Counted from the first letter of the stretch, positions 3,100-34,110 are shown. The stretch: DNA of 37,027 nt from Bdellovibrionales bacterium (GCA_041736775.1 JBGSSY010000232.1:1-37027); one strand, 5' to 3'. A program made the numbers and translations. The notes: a model not told the origin generated them from the sequence alone.

Positions 3100-3114
3100 A
3101 AAAAATTGGTCGGG
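3100..3114. repeat. distal att direct repeat (copy of the tRNA-Pro 3' end plus downstream A/T run)
   Basis: Exact 15-nt match to 34027-34041. It lies 96 bp from the end of the integrase gene. Confidence 0.55.
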
Positions 3115-9636: not shown

Positions 9637-10149
9637 ATGAATCAAATTACTATTTTATTATTATCACTGATGGTCTTATCTGGTTGTTCAAGTTTGCAAA
9701 ACTCTAGTGAATCTTTAAAGGCAGTTGAAACCACGTCATCCCATCAGAATCAAAAACAAAGTTCCGAATGTAAAAATACAGAAACTTCTTTTAACTGTGT
9801 TTCAGTTGTTGAAGTTTATGATGGTGATAGCATTTTTATAGACTTACCTGACCAACATCCTCTGTTCGGAAAAAGAATGGGTGTTAGAATTTCGGGTATT
9901 GATACTCCAGAATTAAAGACCAAAGACGCTTGTGAGAAAAAGAGGGGTCAAGAGGCAAGAGTAATTCTTCAAGCTATGATATCTAAAGGTAACCGGATTG
10001 ATATAGTAAGTGTTGAAAAAGATAAATTTTTTAGAATTCTTGGCACAGTGTTAGTCGATGGTCGTTCAGTTTCAGATGAGTTAATCAAGCGTAAGGTCGC
10101 ATATCCGTATGGTGGTGAGAAGAAAATTAAAAGAAACTGGTGCTTTTAA
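9637..10149 (+). CDS. thermonuclease (staphylococcal-nuclease-like) lipoprotein
   Basis: Lipobox LSGCSS. SNase-type motif VYDGDSIFIDL ... GVRISGIDTPELK. It is the only plus-strand gene inside the T4SS block. Confidence 0.75.
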   Translation: MNQITILLLSLMVLSGCSSLQNSSESLKAVETTSSHQNQKQSSECKNTETSFNCVSVVEVYDGDSIFIDLPDQHPLFGKRMGVRISGIDTPELKTKDACEKKRGQEARVILQAMISKGNRIDIVSVEKDKFFRILGTVLVDGRSVSDELIKRKVAYPYGGEKKIKRNWCF

Positions 10150-10162
10150 CTTCTAATATTTA

Positions 10163-11047
10163 TTATCCTAAGTAAGTATTTAATTTTGTGATCATCGACT
10201 TTGAATTTAGTGTCAAAGATAACTCTTCAAATGAGCTTTCGAGAAGAAAGTTTGTCATATCTTTTTTGGCTAATTCCCAATCTAACTTTTCAAGCTTTGT
10301 AGTTAAGACACCATTAAGCCATTTTTGGTCAATATTCAAATTTTGATCTTTGAATGGACCAGCTTTAAATAGCGCATTTTTTAGTAACTCATAGTTGGGT
10401 TGAATCTTTTTACTGAGGTACCAATCTAGGTCAAAATAATCTCTTCCTTTGATATATGATTCTGATCCATGGAAAAAGTCTCTGCATAAAACAGCGTGTA
10501 GTTTGCCAGCAAAGGAAGAGCTATGATCCTGTATCTGCAACTTAAATTTTTCAGGAAAATCTAGTTCTACATCTACAAAAGTTGATCCAATGGGTGCATC
10601 TGTGTCGATTTCAATTTTTATTTGAGATTTAGCATTTTGAAATGCATATTTTGGATTCTTATCTAAGAACTGCTTGGCGAGTGTTCCTTCTTTAATCCAA
10701 ATTTTTTGAATGTTGTTGTTAATCGGACTATGTGTAATCTCCAAAATAAGTCCCGTTTGAGATAAAATATCTTTTGCTTGGTTAAGCATGTCGGCAATAT
10801 CTGCATTGGTTTTTTGCTTATTTACTAATACGAAATCTAGGTCCTCAGAAAAACGATCAATTTTGTCTACAATTCTTAAGCATGTGCCACCATGAAATGC
10901 GATGTGATCAAAGAAATCAATTTGGCTGAGAGCAAACAAATAGCTGTGCTGAAGAAGCTCTTTGTAAAGATTTTCCATAAAAAGTTGATCTTCGGATTTG
11001 GCGTTGGTTTTTTTATTTAAAATTTCTTTGATTAAATTATTGCTCAT
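10163..11047 (-). CDS. AbiEii/AbiGii-family nucleotidyltransferase toxin (type IV TA)
   Basis: HGGTCLRIV ... DRFSEDLDFVL motif. ATG at 11047 (MSNNLIK) overlaps the AbiEi stop by 11 nt. The ORF track's longer start at 11107 is unlikely. Confidence 0.75.
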   Translation of the reverse strand: MSNNLIKEILNKKTNAKSEDQLFMENLYKELLQHSYLFALSQIDFFDHIAFHGGTCLRIVDKIDRFSEDLDFVLVNKQKTNADIADMLNQAKDILSQTGLILEITHSPINNNIQKIWIKEGTLAKQFLDKNPKYAFQNAKSQIKIEIDTDAPIGSTFVDVELDFPEKFKLQIQDHSSSFAGKLHAVLCRDFFHGSESYIKGRDYFDLDWYLSKKIQPNYELLKNALFKAGPFKDQNLNIDQKWLNGVLTTKLEKLDWELAKKDMTNFLLESSFEELSLTLNSKSMITKLNTYLG

Positions 11048-11687
11048 ATAGATTCTCGCAAACCTTATCCATAAAAGGTTCATTGTAGTGCAGTTTATAA
11101 TTCTCAAGATCCTGCCAGTTTACAATTTCAAGTGCGTCTTCATTCAGTCTAAGGTCATGAATAAGATGCGCTCTGTTAGTCCAAGTTTTTTTGGTGATAT
11201 AGGCATGATCGAGAATAGCTTTGAGCGGAGTTGCGATTCGGTATTCGATTCCTTGAGGTAGGCTAACTGTATCCACACCAAATGTAATAAAGTGTCTTGG
11301 AACTTTCATAAAGTTAAATGTTCCAATTTCAGTTTTAAAAGGTTTTTGGTGTTGAATTAATTTATCTGTAAATGCAGAAATAATTCCTACCGCTTCTGGA
11401 ATTAGTCCAAGATAGTTAAGCGCTGTCATATCTGTTACATAACAAAATGGATCAATCTTTCCTAAAAATTCAAAGGGAGAAATAATGCGACTACGATGCT
11501 TTTCAGGTAAGCAATAGACTCCACTTCTTAGACGAATTAAATCCTTTCGTTCCACGGCTCTCTTTAGTAAGTTGGCTACTGAGGCTTTCGTAGCTCGTGA
11601 ACGTCTTAAGGAAAGCTCTAGTTCACTTTTAGTGAACAAGGGTTGACTAGCTCTTTTTTGGATAATCTGTTGAAATTGCATTCTCAT
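11037..11687 (-). CDS. AbiEi-family antitoxin / transcriptional regulator
   Basis: N-terminal wHTH-like FTKSELELSL...VANLLKRAVERKDLIRLRSGVYCL. Immediately upstream of and overlapping the AbiEii gene. AAGGAG RBS; the second ATG at 11681 is better spaced from it. Confidence 0.7.
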   Translation of the reverse strand: MRMQFQQIIQKRASQPLFTKSELELSLRRSRATKASVANLLKRAVERKDLIRLRSGVYCLPEKHRSRIISPFEFLGKIDPFCYVTDMTALNYLGLIPEAVGIISAFTDKLIQHQKPFKTEIGTFNFMKVPRHFITFGVDTVSLPQGIEYRIATPLKAILDHAYITKKTWTNRAHLIHDLRLNEDALEIVNWQDLENYKLHYNEPFMDKVCENLYEQ

Positions 11688-20651: not shown

Positions 20652-22187
20652 TTAGTTTCTCGATTTATATCCCTTAAATGACAGCTGAACTTTATCTAAA
20701 AGTGAGGCATTTGTTAGCTCGAATCCAGCTGTTGAGAGGCTATCCATCAAAGCTTGCCATACAGCACCACTTGAGCTGTTAAAAACTAAACTCATACATC
20801 CATTTCTTTTAAGTACACGATTCATTTCCTCAAAAGATTTTGTCATAAGATTTGAGTAATTATCTAAATCTTTGCCGCCTTTGCACGATTTGAGCGATTT
20901 ATTTACAACAGCTTCGTCCACAATTGATGTTGGATTACCAAGCCAAGCTTCTGCTATAAAATTGCAGTCTGCATAAAAAATATTCGCGCCGAAAGGTGGA
21001 TCTGTATAAATATAATCGATACTTGATTCATTTATTGTTTTCAAACTTGTGGCTGAGTTTCGATTTAACTTTACAAGTGAATTTGTTGAGTACTGGTTAA
21101 GAGAAGAGAAGTATTTGTACAGTGTATCGATCTTATTTGCAAAAATCTGATAGACGTTTCCTTCGCTGTAAAGCTGAGGGAAGTATAAAGTGCCAGTGAG
21201 TGGTCTATGGCCTCCTTTAGAATTGTATCTTCGCATCTTTGTCCCGTGCCAAGCTGTGTTTGTAAACGCAAGCATTAAAGCAGCTTGGATTCTCTGGTCT
21301 GCGATCTGAGTTATTTCTTGGTAAAGCGAAGTTAGTGCGAGCCAATTGGTGTCTGAGTAAAAATCTCTTAGTTTGGTTACATTTTGCAAATGTAATGCGG
21401 ACCTAATATGCATTTCACGATTAGCGTCAAATGGTGTATTCGCAATTTGATTAAATGAATTACAGCTACTAATTTTGGTTCTTGTCCTTTCAATAGGATT
21501 TTCTATTTCTTTGAGTTCAAGTCTACTAGACGTTTTTATTACTCCTGCTAGGGAGGCCCTTTTTTCAACAGCTTTTAGATTAGACTTACGATTTGATCTG
21601 TTGCAATTTGGACATTTTATAATCGATGGGACTTTGTAGTTTGGTGATTGTTTAGCTACTTCCCATGCGGAAATTTGTTTAGAGCAAAACTCACAAGAGA
21701 ATATGTCTGCAAAAACTAAGTAGCTAATTTCGCGTTCCGTACCATCAATTTTAGCAAAATAGGGTGATTTGTGTTTAAGTTTTTCAATTATAATATCAGA
21801 GATATGTTTTAATTTTACATGATCGCAGAATGCAACATGGTTGGCAGATAGATGAATTGCCAATGAGCCAATATCAGAAAGATATGCATTTCTTCCAGTT
21901 AATTTTGCAGCTAACCCCGTCATCCCGCTCCCACAAAATGGGTCTAAAATATTCTGGTTTTGCTTTGTGTTCGATAGGATTCTTTTTACAATATTATCTA
22001 CCGGTACTTTCGTTGGGTAAGAGTGTGTATTGTAGAAAATGCTTCCCTTACTACTGCCTAAGCCGAGTTTAAGGTCATATTTCATCTGGGTGTTGAAGAC
22101 TGTTTGATAAGACTCTAGATAACTATTCTGTGTATATATTTTATCAAAAAAAGTTATAGTCTTTTGGTTTAATTTTTGTTTCTTCAA
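20652..22187 (-). CDS. DNA (probably N6-adenine or N4-cytosine) methyltransferase with a zinc-ribbon insert
   Basis: HSYPTKVP...ILDPFCGSGMTG (AdoMet motif, aa 55-91). CEFC (165-168) and CPNC (192-195). IDYIYTDPPFG (catalytic motif IV, D396 = nt 21002-21000). TTG start with AGGAG 6 nt upstream. Confidence 0.85.
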   Translation of the reverse strand: MKKQKLNQKTITFFDKIYTQNSYLESYQTVFNTQMKYDLKLGLGSSKGSIFYNTHSYPTKVPVDNIVKRILSNTKQNQNILDPFCGSGMTGLAAKLTGRNAYLSDIGSLAIHLSANHVAFCDHVKLKHISDIIIEKLKHKSPYFAKIDGTEREISYLVFADIFSCEFCSKQISAWEVAKQSPNYKVPSIIKCPNCNRSNRKSNLKAVEKRASLAGVIKTSSRLELKEIENPIERTRTKISSCNSFNQIANTPFDANREMHIRSALHLQNVTKLRDFYSDTNWLALTSLYQEITQIADQRIQAALMLAFTNTAWHGTKMRRYNSKGGHRPLTGTLYFPQLYSEGNVYQIFANKIDTLYKYFSSLNQYSTNSLVKLNRNSATSLKTINESSIDYIYTDPPFGANIFYADCNFIAEAWLGNPTSIVDEAVVNKSLKSCKGGKDLDNYSNLMTKSFEEMNRVLKRNGCMSLVFNSSSGAVWQALMDSLSTAGFELTNASLLDKVQLSFKGYKSRN

Positions 22188-22351
22188 AATATTCTCCTGT
22201 TGAGTAAGGTTAACAGGGTTGAATAATTGAGTATTTTTTAAAATATATTTAACTGAACTTAAGTCTCATAAAACCAGCTCTTTGGCGAGTTGTTGCTTTT
22301 ACTGATCTTCTAGCTTTTGAGTACGGTTGTTTTTCAATTTACACTCATAAT

Positions 22352-22876
22352 ATGTTAAAACTACTAAGTGTGAAGCAGCTTCACGCTAATTTCATAGCTG
22401 ATCTAGAAAATCGAGTTGTTTCAACATCATCAATTACACAAAAACCACTTGATGTAATAGCTAGTCCACCAATGCGCAGCCTAAGAGTTTATTTGTATAA
22501 TTTAACTAAACCTCCTGGCGGAAGATCAGAGGATGAATACAAGATACAAATTATAATTCCAGGACAAGTGCGTGGCGAGAAAGGGAATTTTGACTTTTCC
22601 AAAGAAGATCATGTCGTGCTTTTGATAGGATATGAGCAAAATTTTGGAGTTTGGGCTCTCTGGGATGCTTATCTATATAAAGATATTTCCTATTCAAGAA
22701 ATGTACAAATTAAATCACATGCATTAATAAAAGCGGCTTCTTCTGGATTTGGCGAACAACAAAGAGAAACCAAAAATGGTTTAGAAACAGTTTTAACTTG
22801 TTCAAGAAAAAATCTAGCTGAAGCCGTTCAGAAAAGAATATCAATGTGGGTCAATGATCTTGTGAGCAAAATATGA
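22352..22876 (+). CDS. hypothetical protein, first gene of the nuclease-helicase operon
   Basis: 174 aa. Its stop overlaps the next start (ATGA). No catalytic motif recognised. Possibly a DNA or modification reader, which is speculation. Confidence 0.5.
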   Translation: MLKLLSVKQLHANFIADLENRVVSTSSITQKPLDVIASPPMRSLRVYLYNLTKPPGGRSEDEYKIQIIIPGQVRGEKGNFDFSKEDHVVLLIGYEQNFGVWALWDAYLYKDISYSRNVQIKSHALIKAASSGFGEQQRETKNGLETVLTCSRKNLAEAVQKRISMWVNDLVSKI

Positions 22877-25020
22877 CCCTTCAAGATCTTAAACTTCTCT
22901 TTTGTTATGACTCTGGTCCAAATGATCTGGCGGAGGAATTTTATATTCCATGTATGAAAAACTCACAAAGATATGATAGAGCTGTTGGTTTTTTTTCTAG
23001 CTCAATTTTTCAGATGAATTGGCGAGGTCTTCGTTATTTCTTAAAAAACAATGGACTTATTAGAATCGTATGCTCTCAACACATGCAACTAAAAGATGTT
23101 AAAATTATGACATCGACCAAAATTAATGCACAGAATGATATTCACGATGGTTTAATTAAAGAAATTGATAAACTTATGGAGAATGAATCTGGTCGAGCGG
23201 CTTTAGTAGTTTTTTCTTATCTCATCTCAACTGAAAGACTGAAGCTGAAGATTGCGGTTCCCGAGTCTTCATTAAACTCTAGTTCATTGTCTATCTTTCA
23301 TTCAAAAGTAGGTATTTTTACTGATGAAGTGGGTAGTAAGGTAGTTTTTAAGGGATCATCAAACGAATCGAATGGAGCTTTTTCTAAGGATGGAAACGCC
23401 GAGACTGTAGATGTTTATTGTTCTTGGATTAACCCTAACGAAAGTAAAAGAGTAGAAAAAGAATGCCAAAACTTTGAAAACTTATGGAAAAATGAATTTA
23501 CAGGATTAAGGGTGTTTGAATTTCCTGAGGCGATTAAGCAAAAAATATTAAAAATTTCTGACGGGAAAAATATAAATGATTTCCTGAAAATTCTTGAGAA
23601 TTTACCCAATGAAGACGATTTTGAAAAGATAAATATAGATGATTTATGCCTTTCTGTTAATAAAAAATTTTCGATGAGCTTACCCCTAAGGGAGCATCAG
23701 ATCAAATCTTTAAAAGAGTGGAATCAAGCAGGTTTTAAAGGATTAATGGAGCATGCAACGGGTTCAGGTAAAACTGTTACGGGAATATCGGCGGCAATCA
23801 CTGCATTGAACAATGGTTTATCTGTGATTATTCTAGTACCTAGTGCATTACTACTTGCCCAGTGGAAACTTGAAATTCAGAAACTGATTGAGCCAACTCC
23901 GCCAGTTCTACTTTGTGGGGACGGGAATAGAACATGGAAAAATTTTGGTTTAAAAAATTGGGTATCCGAAGCGGAGAATCCAAGGATTGTAATCTCAACA
24001 ATTTCTACTGCATGTTCTGATGAGTTTATAGAACAATTGGACCAAAGTAGTGGTTGGACACTAATTGTGGACGAAGTTCATAGAATTGGAAGTATAGGCT
24101 GTGAAAAGTTTTTAAGATTAAATCCCGAATATAGATTGGGTTTGAGTGCTACACCTACGCGTGCAGGTGATCCTCTGGGAACTAAAAGAATTGTAGATTT
24201 TTTTCAGACAGTACTACCGACAAAATTTGGTTTGTCTGATGCAATTCGTTTAGGTGTATTAACGCCGTATCATTACTCAATTCGAACAGTCGAGCTTACT
24301 CAAGAGGAAATGGAGAAGTGGATATCAATTTCCAGAAAGCTTGCAGTTCTGAGCTCAGGGCAAGAATCAGGTGATTCTAATTGTATTGCTCAAATTGAAA
24401 GACTTTTGATTGAGAGATTTCGTATCGTAAAGGGTGCTGAAAATAAAATTGAAAAGGCAGTGAATTTGATAGCTGATAGATATAGTCAGGGCGACAGATG
24501 GATCGTCTATTGCGATTCAGTTTCCCAGCTTGAGAGTCTATTTGTAGGATTATCCCGAACTTCGATTACAGTTTCAAAGTATTACGCAGGTATGGCTGGT
24601 GATCAAAAGCAAACTTTAAGATTTTTTGAGCGGGTTGGAGGCGTGGTTCTATCAATTCGTTGCCTTGATGAGGGGATTGATATCCCCGCAGCTAGTCATG
24701 CGCTTATTATTGCAAGCTCTCAAAATCCGAGAGAATTTATTCAGAGGAGAGGGCGTGTCCTTAGAAAATCTCCTAACAAGTCTATTTCATATATTACTGA
24801 TCTAATCACGTTGCCGTCTCTAGATTATTTGGATGAAGAAGCAAAATCTTGCGGAAGGTTTATAACAGCTGAACTTGCAAGAGCATCTCTTTTTGCAAAA
24901 GACGCAATAAATCCAAATGTTACATTTGATATAGAAAGAATTGCTGAACGTTTTGCAATAAATATTAAAGAAAATTCTGAAGATGGAATTGAGAATGATT
25001 TGGAGGAAAATAATGAGTGA
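22873..25020 (+). CDS. HKD (phospholipase-D-family) nuclease fused to an SF2 (ResIII/DEAH-type) helicase
   Basis: N-terminal YDRAVGFFSSS and a single HKD motif HSKVGIFTD...GSSNES (H143 = nt 23299). Helicase motifs: ATGSGKT (I), LIVDEVH (II), SAT (III), QRRGRVLR (VI). Confidence 0.85.
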   Translation: MTLQDLKLLFCYDSGPNDLAEEFYIPCMKNSQRYDRAVGFFSSSIFQMNWRGLRYFLKNNGLIRIVCSQHMQLKDVKIMTSTKINAQNDIHDGLIKEIDKLMENESGRAALVVFSYLISTERLKLKIAVPESSLNSSSLSIFHSKVGIFTDEVGSKVVFKGSSNESNGAFSKDGNAETVDVYCSWINPNESKRVEKECQNFENLWKNEFTGLRVFEFPEAIKQKILKISDGKNINDFLKILENLPNEDDFEKINIDDLCLSVNKKFSMSLPLREHQIKSLKEWNQAGFKGLMEHATGSGKTVTGISAAITALNNGLSVIILVPSALLLAQWKLEIQKLIEPTPPVLLCGDGNRTWKNFGLKNWVSEAENPRIVISTISTACSDEFIEQLDQSSGWTLIVDEVHRIGSIGCEKFLRLNPEYRLGLSATPTRAGDPLGTKRIVDFFQTVLPTKFGLSDAIRLGVLTPYHYSIRTVELTQEEMEKWISISRKLAVLSSGQESGDSNCIAQIERLLIERFRIVKGAENKIEKAVNLIADRYSQGDRWIVYCDSVSQLESLFVGLSRTSITVSKYYAGMAGDQKQTLRFFERVGGVVLSIRCLDEGIDIPAASHALIIASSQNPREFIQRRGRVLRKSPNKSISYITDLITLPSLDYLDEEAKSCGRFITAELARASLFAKDAINPNVTFDIERIAERFAINIKENSEDGIENDLEENNE

Positions 25021-25204
25021 ACTTAAAGAGTTGGCATCGGTCTTAAAGCGAATATGGGATGATATGGAAGAAGATCAAAAAATTGATTTTGAGTTAGCGG
25101 AAAAGATTTTAATAGCTGAATCAGAGAATTTAGAAGATCCGCAAAGAGCCAAACAAGCTATTACTATGTTAGTTGAAGAGTATCTTGAAAATAAAGTGAG
25201 GTAA
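25013..25204 (+). CDS. small acidic protein (63 aa)
   Basis: ATG at 25013 after GGAGG, overlapping the helicase stop by 8 nt. 17 D/E versus 9 K/R by my count. The track's longer start at 24983 lacks an RBS. Confidence 0.5.
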   Translation: MSELKELASVLKRIWDDMEEDQKIDFELAEKILIAESENLEDPQRAKQAITMLVEEYLENKVR

Positions 25205-25205
25205 T

Positions 25206-27137
25206 ATGTTTAGGGTAAAAAAATTGATACTAAACGAGTTTGGACCATATAAAGGCAGGCAAGAGATTGTTTTCCCTGAAACAGATGGAGTGGTTGTTTT
25301 TTTTGGTGAGAACGGTCGTGGTAAAACCTCACTACTCAATGCTATTCGGTTCGTACTATTTGATCGGATTCTTGGTCGTGGATCTAGAACTGTTGATTAC
25401 AAAAATATTCTAAACTGGGAATCCGCAGCAGAAGGAAAAAAGGAGTTTTCAGTCGAATTGGAGTTCTCTTTCAATGATGAGGATTTTCATCTTATAAGAG
25501 TTTGTTTGCCATTTTCGGGTCCGTCTCAAAAAACAGAGACCTTTCTTAGGCGAAAAGGTGTGAGCCTTGCTCCTGATTTAGCTCAAAAAACAATATCCAA
25601 AATTATGCCAGAACAGGTTTCAAGATTCTTTCTGTTTGATGGTGAACTTCTTCAAGAATATGAAGATCTGCTTTTGGAAACAAATCAAAGTGTAGGCATT
25701 AAGGATGCTATCGAGAGAATACTAGGGGTACCAATTTTAACCAATGCGATTTCGCATTTACAAGACTCTTTAAGAGAAGCGAAGAGAACTGAAGCAAGGT
25801 CGCTAGAAAGTGTTAGTAAAACAAAACATATTGGTGAGGCGTTAAAGCAACTTCAAGAAATTGAATCATCGCTTGAAATTGACAAGAAACAGGTTGAGCG
25901 TGATTTAGCTCAAGCTAGGATTGAAAAACTCGCTTGTGAGTCGGTTATGCGAGAAAACGAAAAAGCTGGTGAAGTGATAGGAAGAAAAAGTGTCCTCGTA
26001 AGCGAAGTTAGAGACATGAAGGGCGACTTGGGACAGCTTGAAGCTGATCTTAGTCAGCAATCTAAGTTTATGTGGCTTATGCCGTTGAAGCAAAAAATTC
26101 AGGAGCACCTCAAACAATTACTTCTTGATCAAGACAAGATTATACAGGGTTTTGGAAATCAAGTGAAAGCTACGTTGGCAAAAAGAAGCGCACAGGAGGG
26201 GCACTGTGCTCTCTGTAGCACATCACTGATCGAAGGAATAAGAAAAGATTTAGATTTATTCGCGGATGGTATTCTTCAAGAAAATAATACTTCCATAAGT
26301 GGTATCCAAGTGAACGGAGGAAGGATACAAAAGCTACAAGATATTATTAGCAAGTCCGATACAAATTTTGTTCAACATTTAATCGAACAAATAAGGTTAA
26401 AGAAAAACAGAATCCATGAAAAAGAAATTGAAATTATTGACTTAGAAAAACAACTTATTGGTATAGATGAAAAAGAAATTTCATCTAGTAAGATAAGATT
26501 TGAGCGAGTAATAAAAGAGATATCTAATCTCGAATTGCAACTTAGCAAGATTCAAACAGATCTCGCAACCAAGCGAGTTGAAATTCAGGAATATCAAAAG
26601 AGTCTTGGTAAAGTTAGTGAAAAAAGTAGTTCAAAGGACACTTTGAGAAGATCTTTTTACGATCAACTTTTACAAGTTTTTGGTTCTGGATTAGATATGT
26701 ATAGAGATCGACTGCGACATCATGTAGAAAAAGAATCTACAGCATTATTTCGCGGATTTTCCAGTGATAAGGACTATGAAAAACTAAAGATTAATCAGAA
26801 CTACGGATTAACGATTGTACACCATGATGGAACGGAGATTCCGGTTAGATCCGCTGGATTTGAACATATTGTTGCGCTTTCTTTAATGGGGTCTCTTCAA
26901 AAAAATGCCCCGCTGAGGGGTCCAATTTTTATGGATAGTCCGATGGGTAGATTGGATAGAGCTCATAAAGTTAATGTCACCAAAGGATTACCACTTATGT
27001 CTACTCAGGTTGCTTTGCTGGTATATGAAGACGAGATAAGTCAAGACGATGTTGTTGAGATATTGGGATCAAAATTATTGAAAAGATATCATTTGAAAAG
27101 AATTTCTGCGCGGCACACCATCATAGAGGAGAAATGA
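25206..27137 (+). CDS. DndD-type SMC/Rad50-like ABC ATPase
   Basis: N-terminus LNEFGPYKGRQEIVF...FFGENGRGKTSLLNAIRFVLF (Walker A). FFLFDGELL (Q-loop region). Long heptad-like middle with CALC at aa 334-337. C-terminus IFMDSPMGRLD...QVALLVYEDEI matches the DndD family D-loop/Walker B region as I remember it. Confidence 0.75.
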   Translation: MFRVKKLILNEFGPYKGRQEIVFPETDGVVVFFGENGRGKTSLLNAIRFVLFDRILGRGSRTVDYKNILNWESAAEGKKEFSVELEFSFNDEDFHLIRVCLPFSGPSQKTETFLRRKGVSLAPDLAQKTISKIMPEQVSRFFLFDGELLQEYEDLLLETNQSVGIKDAIERILGVPILTNAISHLQDSLREAKRTEARSLESVSKTKHIGEALKQLQEIESSLEIDKKQVERDLAQARIEKLACESVMRENEKAGEVIGRKSVLVSEVRDMKGDLGQLEADLSQQSKFMWLMPLKQKIQEHLKQLLLDQDKIIQGFGNQVKATLAKRSAQEGHCALCSTSLIEGIRKDLDLFADGILQENNTSISGIQVNGGRIQKLQDIISKSDTNFVQHLIEQIRLKKNRIHEKEIEIIDLEKQLIGIDEKEISSSKIRFERVIKEISNLELQLSKIQTDLATKRVEIQEYQKSLGKVSEKSSSKDTLRRSFYDQLLQVFGSGLDMYRDRLRHHVEKESTALFRGFSSDKDYEKLKINQNYGLTIVHHDGTEIPVRSAGFEHIVALSLMGSLQKNAPLRGPIFMDSPMGRLDRAHKVNVTKGLPLMSTQVALLVYEDEISQDDVVEILGSKLLKRYHLKRISARHTIIEEK

Positions 27138-27138
27138 T

Positions 27139-27492
27139 ATGTCAAATAAAGACAAGGTAACGATTGGGCTTACTCAAGGTGGTAAGGCATGTTTAGACCG
27201 AATTTTAAAATTAGGGTGGTTTAACCATGATATGGATTTAGCAAAATTCGCTATGGCTTTTGCTATAGCAAGAAAAGTTATTCCGGGTGAAGCGAAAGGT
27301 GCGGCCACTGTTTGGAATGTTGGTTCACTTGACTCCGATGGTTCTGTATCTACAATTATCCAAGAGCTTTGTGGCGAACGAGAATCTCCGTACAAATTAG
27401 CCGAACATCTAATAGATGAGGGCTTGAAATTAATTGTTGAGCAAATTAATGCTAGACCTGAAATTAGCTTAGAAGAATTATTAGCTACATAG
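27139..27492 (+). CDS. small protein in the DndE position (DndE-like?, unverified)
   Basis: 117 aa with a GAGGAG RBS; the start is 1 nt after the ATPase stop. Its size and its position directly after a DndD-type gene mirror dndD-dndE. Sequence similarity to DndE could not be verified by eye. Confidence 0.4.
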   Translation: MSNKDKVTIGLTQGGKACLDRILKLGWFNHDMDLAKFAMAFAIARKVIPGEAKGAATVWNVGSLDSDGSVSTIIQELCGERESPYKLAEHLIDEGLKLIVEQINARPEISLEELLAT

Positions 27493-27504
27493 TTATTATT
27501 AAAA

Positions 27505-27541
27505 ATCTCCTTTTTTAAATAGGAGATAATTTTTTGTTTTT
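27505..27541 (+). terminator. rho-independent terminator of the five-gene operon
   Basis: ATCTCCT (27505-27511), 9-nt loop, AGGAGAT (27521-27527), followed by AATTTTTTGTTTTT. Confidence 0.65.
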
Positions 27542-27770: not shown

Positions 27771-27832
27771 TTTGGCTGTCCAGTTATTTTAGGCTATACA
27801 TTTTTATAGCCTAAAATAACTGGACAGCCAAA
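27771..27832. repeat. perfect 28-bp inverted repeat with a 6-nt loop (62 nt)
   Basis: TTTGGCTGTCCAGTTATTTTAGGCTATA (27771-27798), catttt, TATAGCCTAAAATAACTGGACAGCCAAA (27805-27832). Ends 23 nt before the ATG at 27856. Confidence 0.9.
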
Positions 27833-27855
27833 CTTTCTATGTATATATGATTTGA

Positions 27856-28257
27856 ATGACAGAACTTGAGTACCAAACAAACTTGACTAGCTACCTGAAT
27901 AAACGGCTTGCACGTGTCAGAGCTTGGCCTGTGAAGGGACGTAAAACAACCTTCCTCGGCCGTAGTCTTTATCCTGATCTTGAATTTGAGTCAGATATAG
28001 CGGGAAGGTTAGATGTTATTGCTATTGTTGAACTTAAAGTTAGAGGAAGATTAAATCTTTATCAACCTATGTTATATGCAATTTTAAAAAATGCTCCAGC
28101 CTACTGTATAGTCGATGGGAAAAGAAGAACTTCGATTAGATGGTTCATCAATCCTCTTTCTTCAAAAAAAAATTTAATAAATCAAAAAAAGTTTAGCAAG
28201 GTACTTTATGAAATAAAAATAGCAATAGAGGACTTTAATTATAATAATTTTATTTAG
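27856..28257 (+). CDS. small PD-(D/E)xK-fold nuclease-like protein
   Basis: 133 aa. YPDLEFES ... LDVIAIVELKV gives a PD...D...ExK arrangement. No obvious SD sequence. Confidence 0.45.
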   Translation: MTELEYQTNLTSYLNKRLARVRAWPVKGRKTTFLGRSLYPDLEFESDIAGRLDVIAIVELKVRGRLNLYQPMLYAILKNAPAYCIVDGKRRTSIRWFINPLSSKKNLINQKKFSKVLYEIKIAIEDFNYNNFI

Positions 28258-28265
28258 GAGAGAAT

Positions 28266-29549
28266 ATGAAAAAAAATGGGTTTGATAAACAGAAAAGACT
28301 TTTTGAATTAATTGATCAGCTTATAGGAGATCTTCCAAAGCTAGTAAGGAAAGGGAACGGTGCTCCAAAAGCCGCAGAGGCTAAAACTCGTCACGATTTC
28401 GAAGATGTAAGGACCGGTGCTAAAATTACTCATGTGCATTTAGAGCTAAGAGATTTTATTAAAGTATCATCACTGAATGATAATTTTTTTCAACGAAAAC
28501 TACAAAACCATTTAACTGATAAGATTTATAAGAACTTAATAATATCTATTTTACAAGGTCACCTCATTCCAGAGCTTAGAGTTGCGGTTCTTATGCACAA
28601 ATCTAAAGTAACGGCCTTTGATAAAAATGAATTTTTAGCCGCAACTTATAAGGTGTCAATAATTGATGGTCTTCAGCGATATGGATGCTTTTTGATTGCA
28701 ATGTTTCTTGCTGCAAGAGGACAGGATTTGGTTACTGAAAATATAATTAGTCCAGCTGTATATAAAGAGTTTGAGCAATACCTCGGGGTTGACTCTTTAG
28801 AAAAAGTTCTCGCTTCAAAAATTAGATTAGAGGTTTATTACAATCTAGAAATTAAAGACTTACTGAAATATATGATTATATTTAACACAGCTCAAAGAAG
28901 AATGTCTTTGAACCATCAGCTTGAAATCATGGAAGGTACTATACTTCAAAACTTAAAAGAAAATCATAAAGCAAATTTTATTCGAGATACTGATGCTGGC
29001 TCTAAGAAAAACCAATTCACAGGTGCAGACTTAGTATTGGCAATACAAGCTTACCTTCAGCAAGACCATACAATATCTAAAAATGCGACCACTGATGATC
29101 TATTTCATAGCATGAAAAGTGACGATAAGATTGTTGATGATAAAATTGATGAAATTTGCAAAGGCATCTCTTTAATAACAAATAAATTACATCCTGTGGT
29201 TAAAGAGTTTTACGAAGAAACAGAGGAAAGTAAATACATGAACATTCTGCCGGGTAGCACGAGCCAATTTATGGTTCCTATGATGGCTAGTCTCGGTACT
29301 TATACCGAGCGAGAGGGGAATGATCAAAAGTTGATAGTTAGATCAATAAATCGCATTTTGAATTTATATAAAGAGGGGAATGATGTTTTTGAGCTTGAGG
29401 AGTACTATAAGATCACTGACGAAATTAAAAGTAGTCGAGGTGCTACTATAAAAAATATGGCAGAGAGGGCGTTTAGAGATTTTTGGTTCGATAAAACAGC
29501 TACCTCACTAAACTGGCAATATGCTTATAAGACTATTCGCAATAACTAG
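28266..29549 (+). CDS. ParB/sulfiredoxin-fold protein of the DndB / DUF262 (DGQHR/DGQQR) type
   Basis: VSIIDGLQRYGCF (DGxQR motif) and downstream IIFNTAQRRMSLNHQ (FxxxN...L motif). AGGAGAG RBS, 8 nt after the previous gene. Confidence 0.55.
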   Translation: MKKNGFDKQKRLFELIDQLIGDLPKLVRKGNGAPKAAEAKTRHDFEDVRTGAKITHVHLELRDFIKVSSLNDNFFQRKLQNHLTDKIYKNLIISILQGHLIPELRVAVLMHKSKVTAFDKNEFLAATYKVSIIDGLQRYGCFLIAMFLAARGQDLVTENIISPAVYKEFEQYLGVDSLEKVLASKIRLEVYYNLEIKDLLKYMIIFNTAQRRMSLNHQLEIMEGTILQNLKENHKANFIRDTDAGSKKNQFTGADLVLAIQAYLQQDHTISKNATTDDLFHSMKSDDKIVDDKIDEICKGISLITNKLHPVVKEFYEETEESKYMNILPGSTSQFMVPMMASLGTYTEREGNDQKLIVRSINRILNLYKEGNDVFELEEYYKITDEIKSSRGATIKNMAERAFRDFWFDKTATSLNWQYAYKTIRNN

Positions 29550-29590
29550 ATGTGCTAAATTGTATTCAAATATTTAAGGATTAATATCTA

Positions 29591-32500
29591 ATGCAAAAGA
29601 AAAAAAATGAAAAATTAGTTTTTTCGCCAACTGATTTGAGTCGATACTTCGAGAGTAAGTTTTCATCTTGGATGGATCATTATGAGAAGTTGTTTGAAAA
29701 CAGTGGACCATTAGGTAAGATTCATAGAAATCCACCCGATGATTTATTGTCACTTTTAAAACAGCAGGGTTTGGAGCACGAATCTAGGGTAATTGATCGG
29801 GAAAAAATAAAAAATAAGTTCATAAAAATTGATGGTGAATCCACTGAGGAGAAAATAAAAAATACAATCTCGGCTATGGGGGCAGGTTTTGATTTAATAT
29901 ATCAAGGAGCATTAAGTTCTGAAACATTTTTTGGCTATGCAGACATTCTTCAGAAGAAGAAGGGTACTTCGTCTTTGGGAGAACATTACTACGTTCCTTA
30001 TGATGTAAAATTATCATCTGTTGCTAAACCAACTGCAATAATTCAGCTTCTTACCTATTGTGATTTACTAAAGTCTATCCAAAATAAAATTCCAGATGAG
30101 ATTGGTGTAATTACCAAAGATGAATCGTTGCATTTGTTCAGTGTATCTAGTTTTTATCATTTTTTCTGTTTTTTCAGAGATGATTTTCTTAATTTTCATA
30201 GATATTTTGACCCTTCGAGACAACCTTTGCCTGAAAAGACAAAAGATCATCGTGACTGGTCAATCTATGCAAAAAAAATACTTCATGAAAAAGATGATGT
30301 GGCATTAACAGCTAAGCTTAGAGCTACTCATTTAGAAATTCTTAAACAAGAGGGCATATTCACTTTAACTAAACTTTCGGAGTTCGAGGGGGTTAAGTTG
30401 AAAGGAATTCCCGATGAGACGCTTACCACTTTAAAAAAGCAGGCTAAGCTACAAGTCGCATCAAAGGGGAAGAGACCCCCGCTTTACGAAGTATTGCCTC
30501 ATAGTGGTAGAATGGGTCTGTCGATGTTACCGGAGCAAACGGATGACGATATTTTTTTTGATATGGAAGGATATCCTCTAATAGGAAAATCAGGTTTAGA
30601 ATATTTGTATGGCTTTGCAAATAGAAGTCGTAAGTATGAAACTATATGGGCGTATTCTACCTCAGATGAAGCAGTTTCGTTCAAAAAATTTGTAGAGCTT
30701 ATTCATGTTAAATGGATGTCAAACAGATCAATTAAAATTTATCATTATGGTCATTATGAACCGTCAACTTTAAAGAGATTAATGGGTCAATATGGTTTAT
30801 GCGAAAGAATGATAGATGATTTACTTCGGTCAGAAGTGTTTGTAGATCTTTATCAAATTTTGAAACAGTCCTTACTTATTGGGACATATTCATATAGTCT
30901 TAAGTCAATAGAATCCCTCTATTATCCTGAAAGAGAAACTATTGTTTCTAGCGGTGCGGACTCAGCTGTTGAGTTTTCTAAGTGGCTTATTGAAGGTGGT
31001 GATCCAAGAAAGTCTAAATTTTTGAGTCGGATCGAAGATTATAATCGAGATGATTGTTTTTCTACTCTTGATCTTGAGCGTTTTTTAAGAAAGATAAAGA
31101 AAGAGATGGGAATAAATTATATTCCAATTAATTCAGATGAGAAATTAAAAAGAGAAGAAGATCCTGACGCCTTAAAGACAATTTGTTCGTCTCAAGCAAA
31201 AAGAATGCTTGAGTCCATTGATAAAAAGTTTTTAGGATTAAGTTTTGAAAATGCCGATATACCATCGTACGTCTGTGAACAGATAGCACATTGCTTGGAT
31301 TTTGTAAGAAGAGAGGAAAATCCTGAATGGTGGGATTTTTTTTCATTACATGATATTTCACAAGAAGATTTGCGTGAATCCCCAGACGCCCTTATTAACG
31401 TTAGAATTAAAAGTATTTCAGGCAAAGAGTATATTTGTGTTTTTGATTTAGCTCAAGATTCTAAATTTCACAAAAGCTCAAGCGTAAGAGTTCTGGAAAA
31501 CCAATCTCCAAATGAAAAATTAAATGTTGAAAATATTGATTATTCTCGTGGAGAGATTGTCTTGTCTGGAAAATTTTCATCTTTGCCTAATGATTATTTT
31601 ACTCTTGCTCCAGGTAAAGTTTTTTTTAATAAAGACATGATTTTGAAAGCATTGCTAAAGATTGCATTGAGCTTTGATAAAACAAAAAAATATTTTGGTT
31701 TGAAAAAATGTGTTCACGATATTCTGATCAAGTCGAGTCCAGATATTAAAGGTCGGAAATCAGATGAACCTCTAATTAGTGGTCAAAATGCAATTCCAGA
31801 ATTAACAGACCTTGTCTTGAAGATGAATAATACTATTTTGTGCATTCAGGGGCCTCCTGGAACGGGAAAGACTTACACGGGTTCACGGATTATTAGTGAA
31901 TTGTTTAAGAGAAATAAGGTGGTAGCTATTTCAAGCAATTCTCACAAGGCAATGAATCACTTAGCTCTCAAAGTATCTGAGATGAATCCTAGGTCTAGAA
32001 TAATTAAGCTATCATCTGGTGATAAACTTAAAGAGGATAAAATACAGTTTGAAGGAACTAATATTGAAGTTAAAACAACAAGTGTAAAACAAAGTGAACT
32101 TGGCTCCTACGATTTAATAGTTGGTACTGTTTACTATCTCTCAAAACTTGAAAATGCTGTAGATTACTTGTTTATTGACGAGGCTACACAAGTTGCTCTG
32201 CCTAATCTCTTGGCTATGGCGAACTGTACAAGTAATATTTTACTATTAGGTGATCAGATGCAGCTTGAGCAACCTATCAAAGGGGCCCATCCAGGGGAAA
32301 GCGGTAACTCTGCGCTTGTCCACTTAACAAACGGCAGAAAAACTGTAGAACGGAGTTTTGGAATTTTTTTAGAAACTACTTATAGAATGCATCCAGAAAT
32401 TTGTTCATTTATTAGTGAGGAGTTTTACGATTCACGATTGTTTTCACATCCTGATACAGTGAAACAAAAAATTCTTTGGAATTTACATAAACAAGCGGGT

Positions 32501-32995
32501 CTTTTATATATGCCTATTGAGCATATTGGAAACACTCATGCTTCGCTTGAAGAAGTTAAATGTATTAAAGATTTATTTAGTGAAGCACTTAAATCTGAAT
32601 GGATTAACGAGAAAGGTGAGTCTAAGCTCGTGACCTATGAAGACATACTTATAGTTGCACCTTACAATCACCAAGTAGCACTTTTAAAGGAAGCTTTGCC
32701 AGATAAAGCTAGGGTTGGAACTGTTGATTTATTTCAAGGGCAGGAGGCAGCTATCGTTATTACTTCAATGTGTTCGTCTACATTAGAGGATGCGCCAAGA
32801 GGGCCTAATTTTTTACTTAATAGCAATAGAATAAACGTTGCGATTTCTCGGGCTAAAGCATTGTCTATTGTCGTCGGATCTCCAAGTCTAGCCAGTGGAC
32901 AGAGTTCATCTATTGCATCTATGAAATTGATTTCTACTTATTGCCATTTAGTTATGGTGTATTTTGATAAATTAAAAATTAAGAACAAAGGTTAA
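29591..32995 (+). CDS. RecB-like (TM0106-family) PD-(D/E)xK nuclease + RNaseH-like domain + SF1B (Upf1/DNA2-like) helicase
   Basis: N-terminus FSPTDLSRYFESKF, GLEHES, GYADIL...YVPYDVKLS. Middle DIFFDMEGYP, IYHYGHYEPSTLKRL, YNRDDCFST. C-terminus GPPGTGKT (I), FIDEATQ (II), GDQMQL (III), TYRMHPEI, VDLFQGQEA (V), RINVAISRAK (VI). Confidence 0.8.
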   Translation: MQKKKNEKLVFSPTDLSRYFESKFSSWMDHYEKLFENSGPLGKIHRNPPDDLLSLLKQQGLEHESRVIDREKIKNKFIKIDGESTEEKIKNTISAMGAGFDLIYQGALSSETFFGYADILQKKKGTSSLGEHYYVPYDVKLSSVAKPTAIIQLLTYCDLLKSIQNKIPDEIGVITKDESLHLFSVSSFYHFFCFFRDDFLNFHRYFDPSRQPLPEKTKDHRDWSIYAKKILHEKDDVALTAKLRATHLEILKQEGIFTLTKLSEFEGVKLKGIPDETLTTLKKQAKLQVASKGKRPPLYEVLPHSGRMGLSMLPEQTDDDIFFDMEGYPLIGKSGLEYLYGFANRSRKYETIWAYSTSDEAVSFKKFVELIHVKWMSNRSIKIYHYGHYEPSTLKRLMGQYGLCERMIDDLLRSEVFVDLYQILKQSLLIGTYSYSLKSIESLYYPERETIVSSGADSAVEFSKWLIEGGDPRKSKFLSRIEDYNRDDCFSTLDLERFLRKIKKEMGINYIPINSDEKLKREEDPDALKTICSSQAKRMLESIDKKFLGLSFENADIPSYVCEQIAHCLDFVRREENPEWWDFFSLHDISQEDLRESPDALINVRIKSISGKEYICVFDLAQDSKFHKSSSVRVLENQSPNEKLNVENIDYSRGEIVLSGKFSSLPNDYFTLAPGKVFFNKDMILKALLKIALSFDKTKKYFGLKKCVHDILIKSSPDIKGRKSDEPLISGQNAIPELTDLVLKMNNTILCIQGPPGTGKTYTGSRIISELFKRNKVVAISSNSHKAMNHLALKVSEMNPRSRIIKLSSGDKLKEDKIQFEGTNIEVKTTSVKQSELGSYDLIVGTVYYLSKLENAVDYLFIDEATQVALPNLLAMANCTSNILLLGDQMQLEQPIKGAHPGESGNSALVHLTNGRKTVERSFGIFLETTYRMHPEICSFISEEFYDSRLFSHPDTVKQKILWNLHKQAGLLYMPIEHIGNTHASLEEVKCIKDLFSEALKSEWINEKGESKLVTYEDILIVAPYNHQVALLKEALPDKARVGTVDLFQGQEAAIVITSMCSSTLEDAPRGPNFLLNSNRINVAISRAKALSIVVGSPSLASGQSSSIASMKLISTYCHLVMVYFDKLKIKNKG

Positions 32996-34026: not shown

Positions 34027-34110
<84 letters not shown>

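What the first reader, a model, noticed from the sequence alone, without database searches (positions are those of the whole stretch)
27856..32995. Three-gene operon: mini PD-(D/E)xK nuclease + ParB/DndB-like DGLQR protein + giant dual-nuclease SF1B helicase
Seen in the sequence: the gaps between genes are 8 nt and 41 nt, all three are on the same strand, and the operon follows a perfect palindrome.
- The 427-aa protein has the DGxQR and FxxxN motifs of the ParB/Srx fold found in DndB, DUF262, GmrSD, SspE and BrxU.
- It has no fused HNH/DUF1524 nuclease. A separate 133-aa PD...ExK protein precedes it instead.
- The 1134-aa protein combines a Cas4/RecB-like N-domain, a DnaQ/RNaseH-like domain (FFDMEG, YNRDDC) and a Upf1/DNA2-type helicase.

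Inference: this could be a split GmrSD/SspE-like sensor whose nuclease has been swapped, coupled to a processive nuclease-helicase effector comparable in logic to Nhi-type nuclease-helicases. I do not recognise this trio as a named system.
Basis: partly seen in the sequence, partly recalled or inferred. Interest (0 to 1): 0.8.

Follow-up and report, generated by a model that had tools for sequence, protein, structure and literature searches.

The report
Dazbog-like nuclease pair beside lone helicase
The supposed three-gene defence operon is a very rare two-gene unit, a tiny nuclease plus a sensor-like protein related to the Dazbog anti-phage system with its own conserved operator, lying next to an unrelated and widespread nuclease-helicase gene on a conjugative element.

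Summary
The sequence observation holds: three same-strand ORFs (133, 427 and 1134 aa), gaps of 8 and 41 nt, and a perfect 28-nt-arm palindrome upstream. The domain calls also hold.

- **133-aa protein:** an orphan PD-(D/E)xK-fold protein with invariant D41/E59/K61/Q70/Y74.
- **427-aa protein:** a divergent DzbA (Dazbog) with a ParB/DUF262 fold and an invariant DGLQR motif.
- **1134-aa protein:** a full-length TM0106 RecB-like nuclease, DnaQ-like exonuclease and Upf1/DNA2-type helicase fusion.

The trio is not a conserved unit. In seven independent loci the 133+427 pair is always together (gap 8-12 nt) and never with the helicase. In eleven helicase loci the pair is never present.

The palindrome carries a motif, TAGGCTAT-N8-ATAGCCTA, that recurs upstream of the pair in other loci. 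It is therefore most likely the pair's own operator.

Best reading: a rare Dazbog/GmrSD-like two-gene module in which a mini PD-(D/E)xK nuclease takes the place of DzbB or the HNH domain. It sits beside an independent single-gene nuclease-helicase, in the defence cargo of a ~31-kb ICE integrated at tRNA-Pro.

Verdict: a new variant of a known kind, of moderate interest.

The parts
27771..27832 (.). Perfect palindrome with 28-nt arms and a 6-nt loop. Its core is TAGGCTAT-N8-ATAGCCTA and its outer arms are GGCTGTCCAG/CTGGACAGCC. Proposed operator overlapping the promoter of the two-gene module.
   Evidence: z = -12.8. The 8-mer TAGGCTAT/ATAGCCTA occurs 9 times in the 150 nt upstream of the homologous small gene across 7 loci, against 1 time in the other 146 kb of those loci and 1 time in 246 kb of control loci. 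The first inverted pair always has a 16-nt start-to-start spacing (window, L001, L008). GACAGCC lies at -33 to -39 in 4 of 7 loci.
27856..28257 (+). 133-aa mini PD-(D/E)xK-fold protein of an orphan sequence family; predicted nuclease partner or effector of the module.
   Evidence: No hit in Pfam, PADLOC, NCBIfam or PDB sequences. Only 7 genuine clusters among 1.84 billion representative proteins. AF2 model pLDDT 89.7, pTM 0.85. Foldseek PDB hits: DUF820 nuclease 3ot2 (E 7e-4), REase-like 3ijm, Cas4 4r5q, the R2 RLE domain and RecU-like 1rzn. P40, D41, E43, E59, K61, Q70 and Y74 are invariant in both family alignments; E3 and E45 are invariant only among the seven full-length locus translations.
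28266..29549 (+). 427-aa DzbA-like protein: an N-terminal ParB/DUF262-type domain (about residues 44-210, DGLQR at 134-138) followed by an all-helical C-terminal half. Predicted NTP-dependent DNA sensor, and possibly the protein that binds the operator.
   Evidence: PADLOC DzbA, E 2.8e-28, residues 44-420 against profile positions 7-381 of 393. hhalign against a canonical DzbA (L018): 97.2% probability, E 2.9e-11. Family members weakly hit GmrSD_N (2.7e-4) and DndB. AF2 pLDDT 82.9. Foldseek BFVD: 8 hits at E <= 1e-3, seven of them named GmrSD N-/C-terminal-domain or DUF262 proteins (the top hit has no name). Foldseek PDB: the top two hits are BrxU and ParB-N, both weak.
29591..32995 (+). 1134-aa TM0106-family RecB/Cas4-like nuclease + DnaQ/RNase_H_2 exonuclease + Upf1/DNA2-type SF1B helicase. 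An adjacent but evolutionarily independent single-gene unit.
   Evidence: TIGR03491 at 194 bits (cut-off 97.45), residues 45-499; RNase_H_2 at 321-496; AAA_11/AAA_12 at 742-1103. Upf1, DNA2, Sen1 and IGHMBP2 are the closest solved helicases. Invariant catalytic residues: D118, K140, Q152, Y156, D324, E326, Y484, N485, D488, Walker A, and D863/E864. Full-length homologues occur in 59 plasmid records and in at least 290 protein clusters. The pair is never adjacent to it.

Best explanation
The region holds two separate units that lie side by side in the defence cargo of an integrative conjugative element.

**Unit 1 (27771-29549)** is an autonomous two-gene module with its own palindromic operator and promoter. 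It encodes a mini PD-(D/E)xK nuclease (133 aa), translationally coupled to a DzbA-like ParB/DUF262-type NTPase (427 aa).

*Shown:* the homology and fold of both proteins, retention of the catalytic and DGLQR residues, strict pairwise synteny, and conservation of the operator motif.

*Inferred by analogy* with GmrSD/BrxU/SspE and Dazbog, where the DUF262 domain senses modified DNA and uses NTP hydrolysis to switch on a nuclease, and where Dazbog is triggered by a phage cytosine methylase:
- The 427-aa protein binds DNA and senses a non-self feature, most likely a base or backbone modification.
- It then licenses the small nuclease to cut DNA. This would give either type IV-like restriction or Dazbog-like abortive infection.
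- One of the two proteins, probably the ParB-like one as DndB does, binds TAGGCTAT-N8-ATAGCCTA to keep the nuclease operon repressed.

**Unit 2 (29591-32995)** is a stand-alone, widespread TM0106 nuclease-exonuclease-helicase. It probably loads on DNA ends or ssDNA and degrades them processively. It may be co-transcribed here by read-through, but it is not a component of unit 1.
For: **Synteny**
- The 133-aa and 427-aa homologues co-occur, with gaps of 8-12 nt, in all 7 independent loci: L001, L002/L003/L019, L004/L005, L006, L007 and L008.
- Their identities to the window proteins fall together: 58/76, 51/74, 56/68, 48/67, 40/59 and 39/57 %.
- The gene downstream of the pair differs in every locus and the versions are unrelated: AbiEii, 108 aa, 110 aa, 80 aa followed by a dCTP deaminase, 61 aa followed by an RT (UG19), and 174 aa.
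- The helicase homologues stand alone among unrelated neighbours: 8 on plasmids and 3 metagenomic at 63-67% identity.

**Family and fold:**

**Operator:**. A terminator-like hairpin with a T-run after pbeD (27505-27527 and following) separates the upstream operon.

**Neighbourhoods** of the pair are defence islands or mobile elements: McrBC, Mrr, Dcm methylases, AbiE, DRT, dCTP deaminase, integrases.

**Literature:** Dazbog's DUF262 gene is required for defence, and the system is triggered by phage cytosine methylase activity (PMC10952713; bioRxiv 10.1101/2022.08.27.505566).
Against: - There is no experimental evidence for defence, nuclease activity or NTPase activity.
- No DzbB homologue is present, so the analogy with Dazbog rests on one protein only.
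- Pfam DUF262/GmrSD_N does not reach significance on the window protein itself.
- Foldseek matches to solved structures are weak (E 0.06-0.3).
- The small protein could be a DNA-binding or regulatory PD-(D/E)xK protein rather than an effector.
- The 41-nt gap without a terminator leaves local co-expression with the helicase open.
- The pair is so rare (about 9 clusters) that the synteny statistics rest on 7 loci.
Confidence: 0.6

Rival explanations
1. One reading: all three genes form one system. The ParB-like sensor and the mini nuclease would detect or nick invader DNA, and the TM0106-helicase would be the processive effector.
For: Same strand, gaps of 8 and 41 nt, and no detectable terminator or strong promoter between the 427-aa and helicase genes. 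Both units are nucleic-acid enzymes lying in a defence island.
Against: No locus combines them: 0 of 7 pair loci contain the helicase and 0 of 11 helicase loci contain the pair. The closest helicase homologues (63-67% identity) are preceded by intergenic gaps of about 290-510 nt and have unrelated neighbours. The helicase family is large and full-length on its own.
Confidence: 0.1
2. The pair is an addiction or toxin-antitoxin-like stabilisation module of mobile elements rather than a sensor-effector defence system. The small nuclease would be the toxin. The ParB-like protein would be its DNA-binding repressor or antagonist, in a DndB-like regulatory role acting through the conserved operator.
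For: A conserved palindromic operator lies directly upstream. The layout is small gene first with tight translational coupling. The pair is always found on mobile elements or islands. Some family members have weak DndB similarity. DndB is known as a regulator of its own operon (own knowledge).
Against: The DGLQR NTP-binding signature and the whole DzbA-like architecture are strictly conserved, which fits a sensor or switch better than a simple repressor. TA function and Abi defence are not mutually exclusive.
Confidence: 0.17
3. The pair serves the biology of the element itself (partition-like DNA handling, ICE maintenance or anti-restriction), and the nuclease fold is non-catalytic or site-specific for the element.
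For: ParB-fold proteins are classic partition and DNA-clamping factors. The module lies in an ICE.
Against: There is no ParA partner and no GERRxR CTP motif; the signature is DGLQR as in DzbA. Homologous pairs sit in varied, non-ICE contexts next to McrBC, Mrr, DRT and AbiE. The catalytic D/E/K residues are invariant.
Confidence: 0.06

Closest known systems
Dazbog (DzbA + DzbB; Millman et al. 2022, as cited in PMC10952713 and bioRxiv 10.1101/2022.08.27.505566)
   Same: The 427-aa protein matches the PADLOC DzbA profile end to end (E 2.8e-28). It shares the DGLQR and (L/F)NT(G/A)Q..MSL..Q.EI blocks with a canonical DzbA. Both are two-gene, defence-island modules built on a DUF262 protein with no DUF1524.
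   Different: There is no DzbB. A canonical DzbB (395 aa, L018) shows no similarity to the 133-aa protein (hhalign probability 0.1%). The partner here is a 133-aa PD-(D/E)xK protein encoded upstream, not downstream. Identity to canonical DzbA is only about 27% over the N-terminal half.
GmrSD / BrxU / SspE (DUF262-DUF1524 type IV restriction enzymes and the PT-sensing nickase)
   Same: ParB/DUF262-type N-terminal domain by fold (BFVD hits are mostly GmrSD_N proteins; BrxU is the top PDB hit). The logic of a sensor NTPase plus a nuclease is shared. Split GmrS/GmrD forms exist (own knowledge).
   Different: There is no DUF1524/HNH domain and the C-terminal half is all-helical. The nuclease is a separate PD-(D/E)xK protein. 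Pfam GmrSD_N is not significant on the window protein.
Menshen NsnA (ParB-DUF262 + ParBDB) and DndB
   Same: A ParB-like DGxxR domain followed by a helical, probably DNA-binding, domain (PMC12065111). DndB-like autoregulation is a plausible model for the operator.
   Different: No NsnB ATPase or NsnC effector is present, and there is no PADLOC Nsn hit. DndB similarity is marginal (best E 0.024 in 5 of 46 family members). No dnd genes are present.
TM0106-family RecB-like nuclease fused to a Upf1/DNA2-like SF1B helicase (NCBIfam TIGR03491), compared with Nhi, DNA2 and Mokosh MkoA
   Same: The 1134-aa protein is a bona fide full-length member (194 bits against a cut-off of 97; 31-38% identity over at least 94% of its length to plasmid homologues annotated as such). 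Like Nhi and DNA2 it joins a nuclease to an SF1B helicase.
   Different: It is not Nhi by profile (E 2.8e-4, P-loop region only). It is not Mokosh: only the C-terminal helicase part matches MkoA and there is no PLD partner. No function has been published for this fusion in the literature I could search.

Membership tests
Dazbog | DzbA homologue (DUF262-type protein) | tested here: met
   PADLOC PDLC03835 DzbA, E 2.8e-28, profile positions 7-381 of 393. hhalign against canonical DzbA: 97.2% probability.
Dazbog | DzbB homologue encoded next to DzbA | tested here: not met
   No DzbB hit for any neighbouring ORF in the window or in the 7 homologous loci. The canonical DzbB of L018 (E 3.2e-74) is unrelated to the 133-aa protein.
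Dazbog | Anti-phage activity triggered by DNA methylation | not testable with these tools
   Needs phage challenge and methylase co-expression.
GmrSD/BrxU/SspE | N-terminal DUF262 (ParB-like, DGQQR-type) domain | tested here: met
   Met at the fold and family level. BFVD Foldseek gives 8 hits at E <= 1e-3, seven of them named GmrSD-domain or DUF262 proteins. Family members hit PF03235 at 2.7e-4. DGLQR is invariant. Pfam is not significant on the window protein itself.
GmrSD/BrxU/SspE | C-terminal DUF1524 HNH nuclease domain | tested here: not met
   No Pfam hit. The C-terminal half of the model is all helices.
PD-(D/E)xK (restriction endonuclease-like) superfamily | alpha-beta-beta-beta-alpha-beta core with D...(D/E)xK on strands 2 and 3 | tested here: met
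   AF2 pLDDT 89.7 with H3-17, strands 23-60 and H69-78. D41 lies at the start of a strand and E59-x-K61 at the end of the next. All top Foldseek hits are PD-(D/E)xK proteins. The residues are invariant.
PD-(D/E)xK (restriction endonuclease-like) superfamily | Nuclease activity | not testable with these tools
   Needs biochemistry.
TM0106 family RecB-like nuclease (TIGR03491) with fused SF1B helicase | Score above the curated cut-off, conserved RecB motifs (D, D/ExK, QxxxY), an RNase_H_2 domain and helicase motifs | tested here: met
   194.3 bits against a cut-off of 97.45. PF13482 3.4e-19 and PF13087 1.9e-29. Invariant catalytic residues in 30 homologues.
   0 of 7 pair loci and 0 of 11 helicase loci combine them.
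Nhi / Mokosh | Full-length profile match (Nhi), or MkoA plus the MkoB PLD partner (Mokosh) | tested here: not met
   Nhi: E 2.8e-4 with no passing stretch. MkoA: only profile positions 793-1081 of 1112. No PLD partner downstream.

The most novel reading that the evidence does not exclude
The 133-aa + 427-aa pair is a previously undescribed DUF262-based immune system. A new orphan family of minimal PD-(D/E)xK nucleases would replace DzbB or the HNH domain as the effector of a DzbA-like modification sensor, and the module would repress itself through a conserved TAGGCTAT-N8-ATAGCCTA operator. This would show that the DzbA sensor is a portable cassette that can be wired to unrelated effectors.
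Probability: 0.45. Interest if true: 0.55.

Novelty: new variant of a known kind. Interest (0 to 1): 0.45.

Why it matters
DUF262/ParB-type sensors occur in GmrSD, BrxU, SspE, Menshen, PD-T4-2 and Dazbog. How Dazbog kills or restricts is unknown, because DzbB has no recognisable domain.

A natural variant in which a DzbA-like sensor is paired with an obvious, minimal nuclease gives a simpler system for asking how this sensor family activates an effector. The conserved operator adds a testable regulatory handle.

The result also corrects a tempting over-reading: adjacency in a defence island does not make a system. It flags the TM0106 nuclease-exonuclease-helicase fusion as a widespread, uncharacterised plasmid and ICE gene that deserves its own test.

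Tried and rejected
- **Sequence searches with the 133-aa protein:** Pfam, PADLOC, NCBIfam and PDB sequences found nothing, even at E <= 10. The word-indexed homologue search found only the protein itself. The exhaustive search found 6 genuine relatives plus two false positives, P0128 and P0129, which are repeat proteins scored over several stretches.
It worked with ids from the representative search.
- **Genome, metagenome and viral scans:**
  - The genome-contig scan with the helicase alone and with the DzbA-like alignment found no relatives.
  - The metagenome-contig scan also found none.
  - The viral scan found only L019, which is the same locus as L002.
- **A profile of the 427-aa family against PDB sequences** gave only a chance kinase hit.
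- **Similarity between DzbB and the 133-aa protein:** none.
- **A conserved third gene downstream of the pair:** none.
- **The palindrome as terminator of the upstream Pbe operon** was rejected. It has no T-run, it is conserved with the pair in loci that lack Pbe, and a separate hairpin with a T-run follows pbeD.
- **Literature searches** for TM0106, PF13482 and Nhi gave nothing useful on the helicase fusion.
- **The source organism of the window** could not be identified.
Full report
**1. Observation**

The three ORFs are exactly where stated: 27856-28257 (133 aa), 28266-29549 (427 aa) and 29591-32995 (1134 aa). All are on the + strand, with gaps of 8 and 41 nt. The TAG stop of the first gene is part of the Shine-Dalgarno sequence of the second (TAGGAGAGAATATG).

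The palindrome at 27771-27832 has 28-nt arms, is perfect and has a 6-nt loop. It folds at -45.9 kcal/mol, z = -12.8.

No terminator-like site lies between the three genes. A 7-bp hairpin followed by a T-run lies just after the upstream pbeD-like gene, at about 27505-27540.

**2. Setting**

The window is a ~31-kb integrative conjugative element.
- A 15-bp direct repeat, AAAAAATTGGTCGGG, lies at 3100-3114 and at 34027-34041. The second copy overlaps the 3' end of tRNA-Pro.
- The element carries a tyrosine integrase, a coupling protein, TrbI, CagX and VirB4/TraC-like genes, a staphylococcal-nuclease-like gene and an AbiEii/AbiEi pair.
- From about 20.6 to 33 kb the G+C content drops to 31-38%, against 42-44% in the right flank. 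This stretch is a defence cargo: a methyltransferase, an MTaX1 protein, a PbeA/B/C/D-like operon (PbeA E 5.6e-194, PbeC E 8e-164), and then the three genes of the finding.

**3. The 427-aa protein**

- Pfam and NCBIfam find nothing. The PADLOC DzbA profile of the Dazbog system matches it end to end: E 2.8e-28, residues 44-420 against profile positions 7-381 of 393.
- A canonical Dazbog locus was recovered on a Pseudomonas sp. DY-1 plasmid (L018). Its DzbA scores E 1.6e-150 and its DzbB E 3.2e-74.
- The profile of the 427-aa family aligns to that DzbA with 97.2% probability (E 2.9e-11). They share DGLQR and the (L/F)NT(G/A)Q..MSL..Q.EI block.
- DGLQR is invariant in 46 homologues.
- The AF2 model (pLDDT 82.9) finds eight hits at E <= 1e-3 among viral predicted structures: seven named GmrSD-domain or DUF262 proteins plus one unnamed, with DndB-like proteins just below that threshold. 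Among solved structures its top two hits are BrxU and a ParB N-domain, both weak.
- According to the literature, DzbA is the DUF262 gene of Dazbog, it is required for defence, and the system is triggered by a phage cytosine methylase.

The ParB/DUF262 assignment is therefore supported.

**4. The 133-aa protein**

- It has no hit in any profile library or in PDB sequences.
- An exhaustive HMMER search of 1.84 billion representatives gives only six genuine relatives. The two other hits are repeat proteins.
- The family alignment keeps P40, D41, E43, E59, K61, Q70 and Y74 invariant; E3 and E45 are invariant only among the full-length members. This is the D...ExK...QxxxY pattern of RecB/Cas4-type PD-(D/E)xK enzymes.
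- The AF2 model is confident (pLDDT 89.7, pTM 0.85).
- Every leading Foldseek hit is a PD-(D/E)xK protein: DUF820 nuclease 3ot2 (E 7e-4), 3ijm, Cas4 4r5q, the R2 RLE domain, 1rzn, influenza PA-N, DrdV and the SPARDA nuclease.
- It is unrelated to DzbB.

**5. The 1134-aa protein**

- It exceeds the curated cut-off of TIGR03491, the TM0106 family of RecB-like putative nucleases (194 against 97 bits, residues 45-499).
- It contains RNase_H_2 (residues 321-496) and AAA_11/AAA_12 helicase domains.
- Upf1, DNA2, Sen1 and IGHMBP2 are its closest solved relatives.
- In 30 homologues the RecB motifs (D118, K140, Q152, Y156), the DnaQ-like motifs (D324, E326, Y484, N485, D488) and the helicase motifs are invariant.
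- The full-length fusion is common: 59 plasmid records from many phyla, annotated 'TM0106 family RecB-like putative nuclease', and at least 290 protein clusters at E <= 1e-50.

**6. Synteny, the decisive test**

Contexts of the 427-aa homologues (57-76% identity) were fetched for seven independent loci.
- In every one a homologue of the 133-aa protein lies immediately upstream, with a gap of 8-12 nt. The identities of the two proteins to the window copies decline together.
- The gene downstream of the pair is different and unrelated in each locus.
- The helicase is never present within 8-10 kb.
- Conversely, eight plasmid loci and the three closest metagenomic homologues (63-67% identity) show the helicase as a solitary gene among unrelated neighbours. 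These include BREX/SMEK/TrlF, type I R-M plus McrBC, SIR2, WYL regulators, an SbcCD-like pair and a Schlafen-AlbA protein. None has a DzbA-like or 133-aa-like gene.

The conserved unit is the pair.

**7. The palindrome belongs to the pair**

- Its core 8-mer, TAGGCTAT/ATAGCCTA, occurs 9 times within 150 nt upstream of the small gene across the seven loci. It occurs once in the remaining 146 kb of those loci and once in 246 kb of control loci.
- In the window, L001 and L008 the first inverted pair has the same 16-nt start-to-start spacing, giving TAGGCTAT-N8-ATAGCCTA. L001 and L008 carry further direct copies.
- The outer-arm motif GACAGCC, which is -35-like as TTGACAGCC or TGGACAGCC, lies 33-39 nt before the start codon in four loci.

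This is the signature of a module-specific operator overlapping the promoter, not of a terminator for the Pbe operon.

**8. Mechanism**

*Shown:* a strictly coupled gene pair that encodes a catalytically intact-looking PD-(D/E)xK protein and a DzbA-like ParB/DUF262 protein, has a conserved operator, and always lies in mobile or defence contexts.

*Inferred:* by analogy with GmrSD/BrxU/SspE and Dazbog (PMC10952713; bioRxiv 10.1101/2022.08.27.505566), the ParB-like protein senses a DNA feature of invaders, probably a modification. Through NTP binding or hydrolysis it licenses the small nuclease. One of the proteins represses the operon at the palindrome.

The helicase is most simply an independent nuclease-helicase of the island.

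The rivals are a local three-gene cooperation, a toxin-antitoxin or addiction role, and an element-maintenance role. They are listed with their tests in the rival explanations.

**9. Novelty**

- The pair is not Dazbog, because there is no DzbB and the gene order is reversed. It is not GmrSD, because there is no DUF1524. It clearly belongs to the DUF262-sensor class, so it is a new variant of a known kind.
- It is very rare: about nine clusters of the 427-aa type at 43% identity or more among 5.8 billion proteins, none in 185,579 representative genomes with the patterns used.
- The helicase is a member of a known but uncharacterised family.

Noticed in passing
window 27771-27832; L001 9499-9546; L008 9450-9510; L006 1087-1130: The palindrome's core motif TAGGCTAT-N8-ATAGCCTA, with extra direct copies at about 18-nt spacing, is conserved upstream of the homologous gene pair in other loci and is almost absent elsewhere (about 800-fold enrichment). 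It is probably a cognate operator. Which protein binds it is unknown.
   Followed up: partly
window 3100-3114 and 34027-34041 (with tRNA-Pro 34034-34110, - strand; integrase 3210-4310, - strand): The 15-bp direct repeat AAAAAATTGGTCGGG marks the ends of a ~31-kb integrative conjugative element inserted at the 3' end of tRNA-Pro. T4SS genes (coupling protein, TrbI, CagX, VirB4/TraC-like) lie at 6.3-16.5 kb.
   Followed up: partly
window 20652-27492: A PbeA/PbeB/PbeC/PbeD-like restriction operon (PADLOC PbeA E 5.6e-194, PbeC E 8e-164) is preceded by an MTaX1 protein and a divergent N6/N4 DNA methyltransferase. No dnd or ssp sulfur-modification genes occur in the window. This may be a methylation-coupled rather than phosphorothioate-coupled Pbe-type system.
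   Followed up: partly
window 27505-27540: A hairpin (7-bp stem, 9-nt loop, -8.4 kcal/mol) followed by AATTTTTTGTTTTT lies right after the pbeD-like gene. It looks like the terminator that separates the Pbe operon from the pair. The consensus scan missed it because the loop exceeds 8 nt.
   Followed up: partly
window 9637-11687: A secreted staphylococcal-nuclease-like gene (9637-10149) and an AbiEii/AbiEi toxin-antitoxin pair (10163-11687, - strand) are embedded among the conjugation genes.
   Followed up: partly
L009-L013 (e.g. L009 8001-9419): A much larger family of ~470-aa DzbA-like proteins (about 30% identity; Binatia, Deltaproteobacteria MAGs) occurs as a solitary gene without the small nuclease. 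Its chromosomal neighbourhood is conserved: nitrile-hydratase-like alpha/beta genes, a Meth_synt_2-like gene and a HemN-like radical SAM gene. This suggests a non-defence or domesticated role for that branch.
   Followed up: partly
L018 4998-7372 (Pseudomonas sp. DY-1 plasmid p.1): A canonical Dazbog (DzbA + DzbB) sits on a small replicon that carries filamentous-phage genes (zonular occludens toxin, major capsid protein). Its DzbB ends in a long (PA)n repeat.
   Followed up: no
L001 (265-kb contig) and L019 (IMG/VR UViG, 80 kb): Two of the loci holding the pair may be viral. One is filed in IMG/VR. The other lies among many small unknown ORFs with thymidylate synthase, DnaJ and metallophosphatase genes. 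The pair may therefore also be carried by phages.
   Followed up: no
L021 11411-12514; L022 3892-4875; L024 14182-14427: WYL-domain regulator genes recur near TM0106-helicase genes. In L022 the WYL gene is divergently adjacent and an SbcCD-like exonuclease/ATPase pair lies directly downstream. This hints at regulated, possibly DNA-damage- or infection-responsive, expression of the helicase family.
   Followed up: no
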